A stretch of 55,745 bases of DNA from Prorocentrum cordatum (Eukaryota): positions 62,001 to 117,745 of the forward strand of contig CAUYUJ010000138.1 of assembly GCA_963575745.1 (NCBI GenBank), given 5' to 3'. The notes under the pieces were generated by a model. It was not told the origin of the DNA, did no database searches, and was given only the letters and a program-made list of their open reading frames with translations. Positions within the stretch are counted from its first letter, which is position 1; the number at the start of each line of letters is the position of its first letter. Positions 2,796 to 50,400 of this stretch are shown piece after piece. The translations under genes were made by a program, and so were the position numbers.

Positions 2796-4045
2796 CTGTA
2801 GGGAAACCAATAGATACCGATACCGCTACTCCCCAGACCTCGCCAGACCAGGGTTTCGAGGCGAATCCAGCGGTGGCGACGAGGGCCTCCCAGGAGGCCC
2901 AAGGGGGGGAAAACAAGGCGAGGCCAGTGGTATGGGTACTTCTTCTTCCCAGGAGTCCTCCCCTCCGAGCTTGAGGTCCAGGTTCTCCACCAGCGTACCT
3001 GCCCCGCTCGGAGGACCCCGGAAGCCTTCGGAAGGTCTTCGGGGGCCTCGCGAGGCTGGGCCCGCTGCACGCGCGCGGGGCCTCCAGTGGGACCAGGATC
3101 CCATGGCGGGCTCAAACACGCGGCCGAACGAAGGGCACATACGGAGGCGCGATAGACGAGCGGATCCGGCGCGACCCCAAAGGAGGGGAAGGTCTGGGGC
3201 TGCAGGGCCGCAGGGCGCGGCACCGCTTGGCGCATTGCGTGGCACTGCTCGGCATTGCACGGCTTCCTTGGCAGTTGAGTGGCGTTGCCTGGCACTGCGT
3301 GGCGAGGCATCAGTGGGCCAGGACCGAGAAACCAGGGAACGGAGACCAAGGGGCCCAGGAAGCAAGACGAAGGAACCGAGAAAACAAGACCAATAAGCCG
3401 AGGAGCCAACAACGACAAGACCAAGAAACCCGAGGAAGGCTGCAAAGCACCAAGACCAAGGAACCGCCCGAAGAAATAAGGAAACAAACCGAAGGAACCG
3501 CGAGGGACGGCAAAGCAACCCTGAGGAAGGCCACCGTAAGGAAGCACGACAAGGAACCCCCGAGGAGTATCGACGGGCCACGCCCTCCACCCACCGATTG
3601 TCCTCAAAAGCAGAGAAGAGACTCCTTAGGCAAAGCCTACTTGGGAAAAACGGCAGAATCCAGTAGCTGCTCTTTGTTCCGCCTTCCTCCATGTTCCCTC
3701 CTCATCCTTCTCATCCCTCGTCGTTCCTTCTCTTCCTCCACCTCCCTCTTCCACCTCCCGCCTCCCCCATCCTCCCTCCTCCTCCCTCCTCCCTCCTCCC
3801 TCCTCCTCCCTGCTCCCTCCTCCTCCGCCTCCTCCCTCCCTCTTTCATCCTCCTACCTTCTTTTCTTCTCCCTCGTTCTTCTCCTCCTCCTCCTCCTCAT
3901 CCGTGGGGCACGGTCATCCGGCGTCCGTACCGCGAGTGCGGAGATGCGCACCTCGTGGTCGGCGGTCGTGAAGCGGCTGACCTTGTCCTGGCTGGCGAAC
4001 GCGTCGACCTTTTGCAATCGTCGTCGTCGATCGTTGGTTGTCGTA

Positions 4046-4107
<62 letters not shown>

Positions 4108-47359: not shown

Positions 47360-47448
<89 letters not shown>

Positions 47449-50400
47449 CCTCCTCCTCCTCTTCCTCCTCCTCCTCCTCCTCCTCTTTGTCCTCCTCCTC
47501 CTCTTTTGCTTAGTCCTCCTTCTCCTCCCCTTCCTCCTCCTCCTCCTCCTCCTCCTCCTCCTCGTCTTCTCCTTACTCTTCCTCGTTTTGCTATTCGCAT
47601 TTTGTGTCGTATTAAGTGTTTTGTTCGTGTTCCTTTCCCTTCCTCCCTTTCCCCTCCATTCCTCCTCGTCTTCCTCTTCCTCTTTTCCCCCCCCTTTCTC
47701 CTCCTCGTTTCCCTCCTCTTTCCCTCTTCTTATTGATATACTTATACTCCTTCTTCAAGTTCAATTTCTTCCTCTTCCTCCTCCTCCTCCTCCTCCTCCG
47801 CCGGCATCTCGCGCGGGCTGATGGGGGGGGAGGCGCGCCGACCCCGCGCCGGAGCTCGGCCCTACAAGAGGGGGGAGGGGCGGGGGAGGGCAACATGAGT
47901 TTCCATGCGCTGAACAAACAGGAGGGGGAAAGTTAGGAAGGCACCAACTATACACCAACACCGATCCTGGCCCAGGATCACCCTGGGCCCAGGATCGGTG
48001 TATACGCCCTCCTGCCTTGCGCAAGAAGGCATATACACCGATCCTGGGCCCAGGGTGATCCTGGGCCAGGATCGGTGTTGGTGTATAGTTGGTGCCCTCC
48101 GAAAGTAGCGTAGCAATGTCGCTGGAGCCTGCAGCGCTGAAGTGATGCAGACGTAATATACACGGTGTAACGATGCCCTGGCGCCTGCAGCCACGCACAG
48201 CCCGCTGCAGATCGCCGCCCGGGTGCCCCCACAAAATTTCTATCGAACTGATCATGCGCTGCTCTCATGAGGCTCCGTCTCGCACGGCGCCAAATCCGAT
48301 GCATTCCAGCGCGCAGTTGATCTAGTGGTTCCCTCCGACGCCCTTAAGAATGTCGGCATCTGGTCCTGGTGTCGTCGTCAGGGGGGCAGTCCGGTGGCTT
48401 CCACTGATTTCCAAAGAATGCCGGGCATTTCCAGTCCCCTCTCACCGGCTTGCAGAGCGTGTCTCGGATCGAAATGATCAGAAGACAACGCCGTGCCTCT
48501 CGGGGAAGACTGGGGCACATCGCGGACACCTGCAGGCGTCAGACCAAGGCGAGAACCGCAATGTGGCGCCCAAGCTCGTGGCGCCCAGGAACTTGCCGCC
48601 CGCATCCTGCGGTGGGCCTCTCGACCTCCGCCTCCTGACGTCCTCCAGAGACGATTTTGCCCTGGGAGGCGTCCGGCTTCGGGATATCCTGAACCTGGGT
48701 CACTCTATGTAGCGCTCTTACACCGCGCGGCGCTGCCTCCACGCACCGATTTGCCCACTGTTCGCTAGCCTCCCGGTGATAGTTCTTCGCCGCCTGCCCA
48801 ACGTCCGCAGAGATGTCCTCCGCGAGCTGCGCGTGTCTACGGCAATCCATCGGCATCTGTCCAACTTCGGATCTAGCCTGCTGCGCCGCGCTGTCCAGAG
48901 TGCCACTGAGCCAGTGCCCGAAGTACTGCGTCCCGAGAAAAGTCGCAATTCCCTCTGGCCATACGTTCAAAGCATCTGTGCCTCGATGCAATTCTTGGGC
49001 GGATGCTGCCAACCTTCATCCACTCTCTTGCTGAGCGCGTCGGGTGCCTCAGTTCACGTGGCGCCCACCCGTCGTGGGGTGGGGGCTGCGGCCGAACACT
49101 CCAGGCCCCTCTTCAACTCTGCACCGGTTTCCTGCGCTATCGCCCCGGCTGCCGTGACTGCGAAAGCCGCCCGTGCCTTGGAAGACACCGCCAAAGCCGC
49201 TACCACGTGGCTGCTCTCGTCATGTGCCATGTCCACGCACGCCTGTTCCAGCGGGTGAAGCGAGCTCCAGTCTGTTGGGGCGCTCCTGGACCCGAACACA
49301 CGGCAGGACGGCATGCGCGGAGTCACTGTGCACGCAAAACGCCTGAGCTTGAGCCCATTGCCCACCAAGTGTAACACGGCGGGGCGATGTGGCTTACGAC
49401 TCCATGTCATGTCAGCTCGGACCCCACGATGCCCGCAAAGCGCCACATCGCTGATCGCGAAACAACCCATCACCGTGGATTCGGTCCCTCCTCTGCGCTA
49501 TATGCTGTGGCACGTTCGCGGGTCTTGGGGGATCGGGCGCTTCCAACTCCTGAACTTGCCTGTTCCAGTGAACGCCTGCCATGTGCGGTCCCTGGATCTG
49601 ACTGACATCAGGCCCGTGCTGGAAATCCGAATCGTGTCAGTTTCACCCGTGGGCCCCATCGAACCTCATAATTATTCATTCATGGTGCTTGACGCTAGCA
49701 AGCCATGCGGGTCCAGAATAGCGTGTCGTAGCCTGCAAGGTTAGACTTTGTGCTCATGGTTCTGCGGCTTTCGTAGACCAAGACCGCCTGGTGCAAGAAT
49801 GGATATTCCCACCGACGCGAGACCAATCGTCGCCTTGCACGGGAGTGCTACCATCTTCCGACCACGCACCTGTCTCTCCCCCGCGACTCGAGCACCCCCT
49901 GCATCCCAGGCCCGCTGCCACAGGCTCTCGCTCGCGAGGCTGCGGTGGCGAGCGGCAGCCAGGCGAGCGCGCACCGCAAAGCGGCTCGTGTTCTGTCGCG
50001 AACAGCAGTCCTCCTCCTCCTCCTCCTCCTCCTCCTCCTCCTCCTCCTCCTCCTCCTCCTCCTTCTCTTCCTCCTCCTCCTCCTCCTCCTAGTCGACGAC
50101 AGCGCAAAAAACGAAGGCTGAAGCCTCAGCCCGAGGAGCTGCCCGCCTCGGGCCCACGAGCGGCACCGCACGCCCGACGGTCAGCCTCCAGAGGCCCCGC
50201 CCTGCCAGCGCTCGAAAACTGCGTCGCGGGCCGCCACACAGCGCAGCCTGCGAGGCTCCGACGAGTGCAGCCCGTCGCCGCCGCCGCCACCACCACCACC
50301 ATCATCAGCAGCAGCATCATCATCATCATCATCAGCAGCAGCATCACCATCATGATCACCATCATCACCATCATCATCAGCATCATCACCTTGAGTATCA

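What the first reader, a model, noticed from the sequence alone, without database searches (positions are those of the whole stretch)
4000..50155. Introns bracketed by exon-echo direct repeats whose mismatches are often synonymous
Seen (sense strand, donor vs acceptor): 33420/21980 GCGCAAGAG|GCA[T/G]TGG (15/16); 10223/10064 GGGGGC[G/A]CAG|GCCTA (14/15); 4641/4401 CAG|GT[G/C]GGTCTC (11/12); 6344/5787 [T/C]TG|GTCCAC[C/G]TGC; 4288/4008 TGC[G/A]AAAG|G[C/T]CG[G/A]CG (12/15); 9885/6466 CAG|GTGAC[C/G]; 50147/46895 GCCCGAG|G. Several mismatches are silent in the exon frame: GCG/GCA Ala, GTG/GTC Val, TTG/CTG Leu, ACC/ACG Thr. Established: introner insertions leave short TSDs, and tandem duplication of an AG|G-containing segment is a classical intron-gain model. 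Inference: these repeats straddle the junction, lack introner TIRs and persist across introns of up to 11 kb. That suggests intron birth by duplication of coding DNA, or selection to keep the similarity, for example to pair splice sites.
Basis: partly seen in the sequence, partly recalled or inferred. Interest (0 to 1): 0.7.

Follow-up and report, generated by a model that had tools for sequence, protein, structure and literature searches.

The report
Repeated intron-boundary sequences in a dinoflagellate gene
The short repeats that bracket about half the introns of this Prorocentrum ABC-transporter gene are real, but they are the repeated intron boundaries already described in dinoflagellates, most likely scars of the DNA insertions that created the introns.

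Summary
The window is a single minus-strand gene, an ABCD-type ABC half-transporter. A cluster member of its product is named Prorocentrum cordatum. Transcript-derived proteins map at 100% identity to 18 exons and define 17 complete introns of 158-11,487 nt. The splice sites are G[C/T/A]...AG|G.

The seventh donor (50147) is wrong; the true donor is 52388.

Donor flanks resemble their own acceptor flanks, in register, far more than shuffled pairs do. None of 100,000 permutations reached the observed value. With the consensus masked, p = 0.0002, and no slid control reached the observed value. The excess covers about -9 to +8. By score, 8 of 17 introns exceed the level that 5.9% of shuffled pairs reach.

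Mismatches show no synonymous bias: 2 of 16 are silent, against 24% expected. There are no terminal inverted repeats, no extended exon-intron similarity and no transposon domains.

This is the published "identical repeated intron boundary" of dinoflagellates. It is best explained as target-site-type duplications made on insertion, from which the splice sites were recruited. Novelty is low.

The parts
2697..52477 (-). The 18 mapped coding exons and 17 complete introns of an ABCD-type ABC half-transporter gene. The gene runs off both ends of the window: aa 1-242 and 873-1125 of P0005 are not found in it.
   Evidence: P0005 aa 243-872 maps at 100% identity in 18 blocks. Pfam finds ABC_membrane_2 and ABC_tran. 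A cluster member is named Prorocentrum cordatum.
33412..33428 (-). Intron 8 (11,439 nt), donor-side copy of the echo GCGCAAGAG|GCATTGGC. The first intron base is 33419 and the donor is GC.
   Evidence: 16 of 17 identical to the acceptor-side copy, with a 12-nt exact run.
21973..21989 (-). Intron 8, acceptor-side copy GCGCAAGAG|GCAGTGGC. The first exon base is 21980.
   Evidence: The junction ...RKR|QW... is confirmed by P0001 and P0005.
10218..10232 (-). Intron 10 (158 nt), donor-side copy GGGGGCGCAG|GCCTA. The first intron base is 10222 and the donor is GC.
   Evidence: 14 of 15 identical to the acceptor-side copy. Weaker similarity extends to -19.
10060..10074 (-). Intron 10, acceptor-side copy GGGGGCACAG|GCCTA. 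The first exon base is 10064.
6334..6345 (-). Intron 12 (556 nt), donor-side copy TG|GTCCACCTGC. The first intron base is 6343 and the donor is GT.
   Evidence: 11 of 12 identical to the acceptor-side copy. None of the 11 protein-compatible boundary placements gives an AG acceptor.
5778..5789 (-). Intron 12, acceptor-side copy TG|GTCCACGTGC. The first exon base is 5787. The 3' end is TG, not AG.
4632..4643 (-). Intron 14 (239 nt), donor-side copy CAG|GTGGGTCTC. The first intron base is 4640.
   Evidence: 11 of 12 identical to the acceptor-side copy.
4393..4404 (-). Intron 14, acceptor-side copy CAG|GTCGGTCTC. The first exon base is 4401.
4281..4295 (-). Intron 15 (279 nt, largely a GAC-type simple repeat), donor-side copy TGCGAAAG|GCCGGCG. 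The first intron base is 4287.
   Evidence: 12 of 15 identical to the acceptor-side copy. All 3 mismatches are non-synonymous in the exon frame. The intron sequence was read.
4002..4016 (-). Intron 15, acceptor-side copy TGCAAAAG|GTCGACG. The first exon base is 4008.
9880..9887 (-). Intron 11 (3,418 nt), donor-side copy CAG|GTGAC. The first intron base is 9884.
   Evidence: 8 of 8 identical to the acceptor-side copy at 6462-6469.
6462..6469 (-). Intron 11, acceptor-side copy CAG|GTGAC. The first exon base is 6466.
31551..31602 (-). A copy of the last ~40 nt of exon 8 plus GCAG, lying inside intron 8 about 1.8 kb downstream of the donor.
   Evidence: blastn: 88.5% over 52 nt. blastn-short: 35 of 37, E 5e-12. 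Alignment shown.
33560..37250 (-). Intron 7 (3,690 nt) with a non-AG 3' end (...CCCCG|G). It has no echo (score 2).
   Evidence: None of the 3 protein-compatible placements gives AG. Score.

Best explanation
Each echo is what remains of a short duplication of the target exon sequence. The duplication was made when a piece of DNA was inserted into a formerly continuous exon at a site containing (A)G|G.

The upstream copy supplies the 5' splice site (|G followed by T, C or A). The downstream copy supplies the 3' splice site (AG|). Splicing therefore removes the insert plus exactly one copy and restores the original reading frame.

Afterwards the exonic half of each copy is held by protein coding. 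The intronic half drifts, apart from the few splice-signal bases, so older introns lose the echo.

This is the 'identical repeated intron boundary' already described for dinoflagellate introns. Introner studies explain it as a target-site duplication from which splice sites are recruited.

Shown here: the gene model, the excess of in-register similarity, its extent, and the absence of inverted repeats and of extended duplication.

Inferred: that the duplication arose at insertion, and what inserted. The inserting agent is not identified. It could be a TIR-less mobile element, a decayed introner, or filler DNA captured during repair of a staggered break.
For: 1. The echo is specific to true donor/acceptor partners and to the exact register. 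No permutation of 100,000 reached the observed value. Masked p = 0.0002, and no slid control of 24 reached it.

2. The echo is confined to about -9..+8 and is at chance further out. That is the size range of target-site duplications, not of segmental duplications.

3. It straddles AG|G, and one copy remains in the mRNA. This matches the published definition: 2-11 bp repeated at both splice sites, present once in the mRNA (Mendez 2015, PMC5032977). It also matches introner classes whose 3-8 nt duplications supply one or both splice sites (Roy 2020 preprint).

4. Intron position +2 equals the second base of the downstream exon in 11 of 17 introns, against 6.4 expected (p = 0.007). All 6 GT donors and the single GA donor match. 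All 6 mismatches are GC donors (read). This fits the reported drift of duplication-derived 5' sites towards GC.

5. Twelve of 17 introns are phase 0. A phase-0 bias is reported when splice sites are recruited from coding sequence.

6. The echo is graded. Scores run from 2 to 15, and 8 of 17 reach 7 or more. Scars of different ages would give this.

7. Introner-type introns were reported as enriched in the P. cordatum genome.
Against: No terminal inverted repeats occur at any of the 17 intron ends. The longest exact arm averages 4.76 nt, against 5.17 for shuffled pairs. The mismatch-tolerant test gives p = 0.87-0.90. This holds even in introns whose echo is >= 90% intact, where an adjacent inverted repeat should also have survived.

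No intron ends resemble each other in the window's self-comparison.

No transposon protein domain was found in the intronic ORFs scanned, apart from one sub-threshold RNase H match in the partial upstream intron.

The longest echoes (16 of 17 nt and 14 of 15 nt) exceed the 3-8 nt duplications of the described introner classes and the 2-11 bp range of Mendez 2015.

Echo length varies from about 6 to 17 nt, so a single transposase type is unlikely.

The sample is one gene (17 introns). No orthologue or population data were available to date the introns.

RNA support is at protein level only. No mRNA nucleotide sequence or reads could be laid on the window.
Confidence: 0.7

Rival explanations
1. 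The echo is kept by selection because it helps splicing. It might help define or bring together the two splice sites of introns with weak GC/GA donors and great length, perhaps through a common RNA or protein that reads the same word at both sites.
For: The similarity is partner-specific. It survives in two introns of 3.4 and 11.4 kb. Ten of 17 donors are the weaker GC type and 2 of 17 acceptors are not AG. One of those two (intron 12) has an 11 of 12 echo.
Against: Nine of 17 introns have no echo above the level that 5.9% of shuffled pairs reach, yet they are spliced. Among them are the 11.5-kb intron 9 (score 5) and the non-AG intron 7 (score 2). Echo score does not rise with intron length (Spearman -0.26, p = 0.31). 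Direct repeats cannot base-pair with each other. There is no synonymous bias of mismatches, which selection acting on the exon copy together with coding constraint would predict (2 of 16).
Confidence: 0.1
2. The introns were born by tandem duplication of a longer exonic segment containing AG|G (the classical duplication model, recalled from memory). The duplicated material itself became the intron, and only its ends are still recognisable.
For: Direct repeats straddle AG|G. In the 158-nt intron 10 a weaker similarity to the upstream exon runs to -19, giving 19 of 24 identical positions across the junction (my count from the flank alignment printed; extent and mismatches). A 52-nt copy of the end of exon 8 lies inside intron 8, so exon fragments can be duplicated locally.
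Against: In-register identity is at chance at -20..-11 and +11..+20 (p = 0.76 and 0.40). Searching all 18 exons against the window gave only that one significant intronic copy. All other hits were no better than the reversed-sequence control. Introns of 3-11 kb cannot be explained by duplicating 8-17 nt.
Confidence: 0.07
3. The echo is a by-product of the shared AG|G consensus, GC-rich composition and the reader's choice of the best examples.
For: Positions -1 and +1 match in 16 and 17 of 17 true pairs, and in 94% and 100% of shuffled pairs. Shuffled pairs reach runs of up to 9 and scores of up to 12.
Against: The test on all 17 introns, with the consensus masked and with both shuffled-partner and slid-register controls, stays significant. 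A 16 of 17 match and a 14 of 15 match are beyond anything among the 272 shuffled pairs.
Confidence: 0.03

Closest known systems
Identical repeated intron boundary (IRIB) of dinoflagellate introns (Mendez et al. 2015, PMC5032977; passages read)
   Same: [quoted passage not shown] The repeat contains (A)GG and occurs once in the mRNA, so the boundary placement is ambiguous. That is what is seen here: 3 to 16 protein-compatible placements per intron. That paper also contains a very long intron (26 kb).
   Different: That description is of exact repeats of 2-11 bp in other species (Crypthecodinium, Amphidinium, Pyrocystis, Symbiodinium). Here the repeats are often imperfect and reach a 12-nt exact run, 16 of 17 with one mismatch. 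About half of the introns have nothing beyond the consensus. A partner-shuffling test is provided here.
Introner-like elements of dinoflagellates (Roy et al. 2020 preprint 10.1101/2020.10.14.339549, passages read; Farhat et al. 2021 PMC7789003; P. cordatum genome preprint 10.1101/2022.07.25.501386)
   Same: Target-site duplications supply the 5' splice site, or both splice sites (AGGH, NAGGH, GHNN and GHN6 types). Donors are GT, GC or GA, with drift towards GC. There is a phase-0 bias.
   Different: Those elements have inverted repeats of 8-20 nt at the intron ends, form multi-copy families and have duplications of 3-8 nt. None of the 17 introns here has such inverted repeats. No family resemblance was seen within the window. 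The longest echoes are 15-17 nt.
Intron gain during double-strand-break repair, leaving short direct repeats
   Same: Unique inserted DNA without inverted repeats, flanked by short direct repeats of variable length.
   Different: It cannot be tested here. It needs presence/absence polymorphism or very young introns.

Membership tests
Dinoflagellate identical repeated intron boundary (IRIB) | The introns are nuclear spliceosomal introns of a dinoflagellate. | tested here: met
   A cluster member is named Prorocentrum cordatum. Donors are GC in 10, GT in 6 and GA in 1 of 17 introns. Acceptors are AG in 15 of 17, and the next base is always G.
Dinoflagellate identical repeated intron boundary (IRIB) | [quoted passage not shown] | tested here: met
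   The partner-specific in-register excess has p < 1e-5, and p = 0.0002 with the consensus masked. There are 3-16 equivalent boundary placements per intron. It goes clearly beyond the consensus in 8 of 17 introns.
Dinoflagellate identical repeated intron boundary (IRIB) | The repeat contains GG or AGG at the splice point. | tested here: met
   G|G at 16 of 17 donors and all 17 acceptors. A at -2 in 10 of 17 donors and 15 of 17 acceptors.
Introner-like element (TIR-type) derived intron | Terminal inverted repeats of about 8-20 nt within about 30 nt of the intron ends. | tested here: not met
   None of the 17 introns has an arm of 8 nt or more (maximum 7). True pairs are no better than shuffled pairs.
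Introner-like element (TIR-type) derived intron | Short direct repeat (target-site duplication) overlapping the exon/intron boundaries. | tested here: met
   The lengths (about 6-17 nt) are more variable and longer than the published 3-8 nt.
Introner-like element (TIR-type) derived intron | The intron belongs to a multi-copy family of similar introns. | tested here: inconclusive
   The window's self-comparison shows no similarity between intron ends. The whole genome was not available, so family membership cannot be excluded.
Intron born by tandem duplication of an exon segment | The intron sequence is alignable to the adjacent exons over most of its length. | tested here: not met
   Identity is at chance beyond +/-10 nt. 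The exon-versus-window search gave one intronic copy only.
ABCD-type (peroxisomal-type) ABC half-transporter | An ABC_membrane_2 transmembrane domain followed by one ABC ATPase domain. | tested here: met
   P0005: PF06472 at 125 bits and PF00005 at 53 bits. The Walker A motif is in the exon at 2795-2697.

The most novel reading that the evidence does not exclude
In P. cordatum many introns may arise by a TIR-less insertion process. It would make long duplications of variable length (about 6-17 nt) straddling AG|G. The process could be retroelement-type insertion or capture of filler DNA at staggered breaks. This would be distinct from the described dinoflagellate introner classes, which have 3-8 nt duplications and inverted repeats. 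In addition, the echo may be retained in some introns because the repeated word helps the spliceosome use weak GC donors or non-AG acceptors, as in intron 12.
Probability: 0.15. Interest if true: 0.55.

Novelty: already known. Interest (0 to 1): 0.25.

Why it matters
The pattern matters for annotation. With repeats at both ends the exact splice point is ambiguous, and two introns here lack an AG acceptor. Gene predictors restricted to G[T/C/A]-AG would therefore break this gene.

The pattern also records how dinoflagellate genes became intron-rich. As a phenomenon it is published: the IRIB in 2015, and the introner target-site-duplication explanation in the 2020 preprint read here. This window therefore adds a well-controlled example, not a new principle.

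The only open points are the agent behind the TIR-less 15-17-nt echoes and whether the non-AG acceptors are real.

Tried and rejected
1. Whole-genome search: no genome is held for this window. No genome-wide intron set or intron-family search was possible.

2. Read-level RNA evidence: RNA runs were found. They hold about 0.07-0.10 of the sampled words of 3900-10300, close to the roughly 13% exonic share I reckon from the exon coordinates, but they were never laid. No splice reads, no mRNA nucleotides at the mismatch positions and no check of the two non-AG acceptors were obtained.

3. Search of metagenome contigs for a nucleotide transcript of this gene: 47 loci, all distant ABC transporters at 23-59% identity. 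None was a transcript of this gene, and none was used.

4. Transposon domains in introns. Pfam was run on 128 of the 152 stop-to-stop ORFs of 150 aa or more; the 24 starting below coordinate 7496 were left out. It was also run on 71 of the 336 ORFs of 75-149 aa, namely those inside intron 8 or above 52500. Only low-complexity sub-threshold hits and one sub-threshold RNase H hit appeared.

5. Terminal inverted repeats: exact and mismatch-tolerant searches were both negative.

6. Exon copies inside introns: 18 exons were searched against the window. Only the exon-8 copy exceeded the reversed-sequence control.

7. A possible acceptor-like copy of the next, unmapped exon at 257-240 (VGMP...) could not be judged either way.

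8. Earlier notes of this scan: nothing was held.
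Full report
**What the window is**

The 55.7-kb window is GC-rich, 49-66% in 2-kb steps, and no genome is held for it. A 43-aa exon translation found a 903-aa protein, P0001, encoded on a 2,740-nt contig that it almost fills, as a spliced transcript would be. 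Its cluster also holds a 1,125-aa full-length form, P0005, from a 3,528-nt Logan contig, and a partial protein that its source names Prorocentrum cordatum.

I wrote a spliced protein-to-genome alignment. It places P0005 residues 243-872 on the minus strand in 18 blocks, each at 100% identity, from 52477 down to 2697. The residues before 243 and after 872 are not in the window.

The product is an ABCD-type half-transporter: ABC_membrane_2 at 125 bits and ABC_tran at 53 bits. It has a C-terminal SUMO/ubiquitin-like domain that lies outside the window. The whole window is therefore one gene with 17 complete introns of 158 to 11,487 nt, 47,891 nt in all.

Poly(A) RNA runs hold about 0.07-0.10 of the sampled words of 3900-10300, close to the roughly 13% exonic share I reckon from the exon coordinates.

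**Intron boundaries**

For each intron I listed every donor/acceptor placement that reproduces the protein exactly across the junction. There are 3 to 16 equivalent placements per intron.

Fifteen of 17 introns have a G[T/C/A]...AG placement with G as the first exon base. Donors are GC in 10, GT in 6 and GA in 1. Two introns have no AG placement at all: intron 7 (...CCCCG|G) and intron 12 (...CCTG|G). Twelve of 17 introns are phase 0.

The quoted strings are present. Six of the seven pairs are true partners. The acceptor at 46895 is real, but its donor is 52388, not 50147. Both transcript-derived proteins read ...FDLPW|YGLLE... across 52388/46895, and that true pair has no echo.

**Is the echo more than chance?**

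I compared each donor flank with each acceptor flank in register and contrasted the 17 true pairs with the 272 shuffled pairs.

| Measure | True pairs (mean) | Shuffled pairs (mean) |
|---|---|---|
| Exact run through the junction | 5.18 nt | 3.26 nt |
| Segment score | 6.76 | 3.81 |
| Identity over 16 nt | 8.82 | 6.37 |

None of 100,000 permutations reached the observed sums for these three measures.

With positions -3..+2 masked, identity over the 15 remaining positions sums to 105, against 76.2 +/- 7.6 (p = 0.0002). Sliding the acceptor flank of the same intron by 1-12 nt either way gives 61-92 and never 105.

The left (-10..-4) and right (+3..+10) halves are each significant (p = 0.008 and 0.0016). 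Positions beyond +/-10 are at chance (p = 0.76 and 0.40). Dropping the two strongest introns still leaves p = 0.011.

The signal is carried by about half of the introns. Eight of 17 score 7 or more, against 16 of 272 shuffled pairs. Four of 17 score 10 or more, against 3 of 272.

The strongest echoes are:
- Intron 8 (11.4 kb): 16 of 17 nt, with 12 exact.
- Intron 10 (158 nt): 14 of 15.
- Introns 12 and 14: 11 of 12 each.
- Intron 15: 12 of 15.
- Intron 11: 8 of 8.

**Synonymous mismatches**

Inside the echoes there are 16 mismatches. Replacing the exon base by the intronic base is silent in 2 and changes the residue in 14. Random single-base changes in these codons would be silent 24% of the time (binomial p = 0.93). 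Codon positions 1/2/3 are hit 6/6/4 times.

Counting them gives 4 of 18, still at expectation. The claim of a synonymous bias is not supported.

**What made the echoes**

Several observations bear on the origin.

- No inverted repeats. None of the 17 introns has an inverted-repeat arm of 8 nt or more near its ends. True pairs are no better than shuffled ones, either exact (4.76 against 5.17) or mismatch-tolerant (p = 0.87-0.90).
- No family resemblance. The window's self-comparison shows internal repeats within introns but no similarity between intron ends.
- No transposon domains. Pfam on 128 of the 152 ORFs of 150 aa or more, and on 71 of the 336 ORFs of 75-149 aa, found none. The exception is a sub-threshold RNase H match (25.1 bits against a cut-off of 25.8) at 53800-54660 in the partial upstream intron.
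- No extended duplication. Searching all 18 exons against the window found one significant intronic copy only. The rest were at the level of a reversed-sequence control.
- Agreement at +2. The second intron base equals the second base of the next exon in 11 of 17 introns, against 6.4 expected (p = 0.007). All six GT donors and the GA donor agree, and the six disagreements are all GC donors.

**Comparison with the literature**

Mendez et al. 2015 (PMC5032977; abstract and passages read) described exactly this in Crypthecodinium and other dinoflagellates. [quoted passage not shown] They named it the identical repeated intron boundary.

Roy et al. (preprint 10.1101/2020.10.14.339549; passages read) explain such repeats in Symbiodinium and Polarella as target-site duplications of introner-like elements. 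The duplications are 3, 4, 5 or 8 nt. One splice site, or both, is recruited from within the duplication. The authors also report conversion of 5' sites towards GC and a phase-0 bias.

Other sources:
- The P. cordatum genome preprint (10.1101/2022.07.25.501386; passages) reports introner-type introns as enriched in this species. I could not see its supplementary tables, which list the genes concerned.
- Farhat et al. 2021 (PMC7789003; passages) define introners by 3-5-nt direct repeats plus 8-20-nt inverted repeats.
- Gozashti et al. 2025 (PMC12130899; passages) show that introners also derive from non-TIR elements, including retrotransposons.
- A 2024 review (PMC11453091; passages) summarises the same picture.
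- A 2025 paper on direct repeats near splice sites (PMC11782384) was seen only in the search listing.
- The published 2023 version of Roy et al. was seen only as a reference.
- The Daphnia break-repair model and the tandem-duplication model are recalled, not read.

**Verdict**

It is the known repeated-boundary phenomenon.

The most likely origin is a short duplication of the target site at the insertion that created each intron, with both splice sites recruited from the duplicated AG|G (confidence about 0.7). The +2 pattern, the phase bias, the limited extent and the graded decay all fit this.

What does not fit the best-characterised introner classes is the complete lack of inverted repeats, even beside nearly intact echoes, and the length of the two longest echoes (15-17 nt). 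The inserting agent therefore remains open.

The alternatives are each disfavoured by the controls above: selection for the echo, birth by tandem duplication of a long exon segment, and consensus plus composition.

Noticed in passing
window 31551-31602 (-), inside intron 8: A 52-nt copy (88.5%; core 35 of 37) of the last ~40 nt of exon 8 lies 1.8 kb into the intron. After ...AAGAGGCA it carries G, like the acceptor-side copy and the mRNA. The donor-side copy has T there. Its flanks are unrelated to either splice site. Its origin is unknown; it could be a local duplication, a templated repair patch or a cDNA fragment.
   Followed up: partly
window 33560 (intron 7 acceptor) and 5787 (intron 12 acceptor), minus strand: Two of 17 introns have no AG at the 3' end under any protein-compatible boundary placement (...CCCCG|G and ...CCTG|G). 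Each is one base away from a canonical AG|G. They are either real non-canonical acceptors or assembly errors. Either would break gene predictors that demand AG. No reads could be laid to decide.
   Followed up: partly
window 53800-54660 (-): A 287-aa open frame in the partial intron upstream of the first mapped exon has a sub-threshold RNase H match (E 2.2e-5; 25.1 bits against a cut-off of 25.8). It may be a retroelement remnant.
   Followed up: partly
window 240-257 (-): An acceptor-like site, cag|GTGGGCATGCC..., encodes VGMP, the first four residues of the next exon. That exon is otherwise absent from the window, and the frame then diverges from the protein. It may be a decoy copy of the next exon's start, a micro-exon or chance.
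   Followed up: no
window 4009-4287 (-), intron 15: This 279-nt intron is almost entirely a GAC/GAT-type trinucleotide repeat.
   Followed up: no
P0005 residues 1047-1114 (encoded outside the window): The transporter ends in a SUMO/ubiquitin-like domain (Rad60-SLD, 35 bits). This is an unusual C-terminal fusion for an ABCD-type half-transporter.
   Followed up: no
window 24546-25115, 38563-39192, 10525-11020 / 30955-31419 / 50365-50847: Several introns share internal repeats of 70-90% identity, some in tandem. None is at an intron end, and they were not classified.
   Followed up: no
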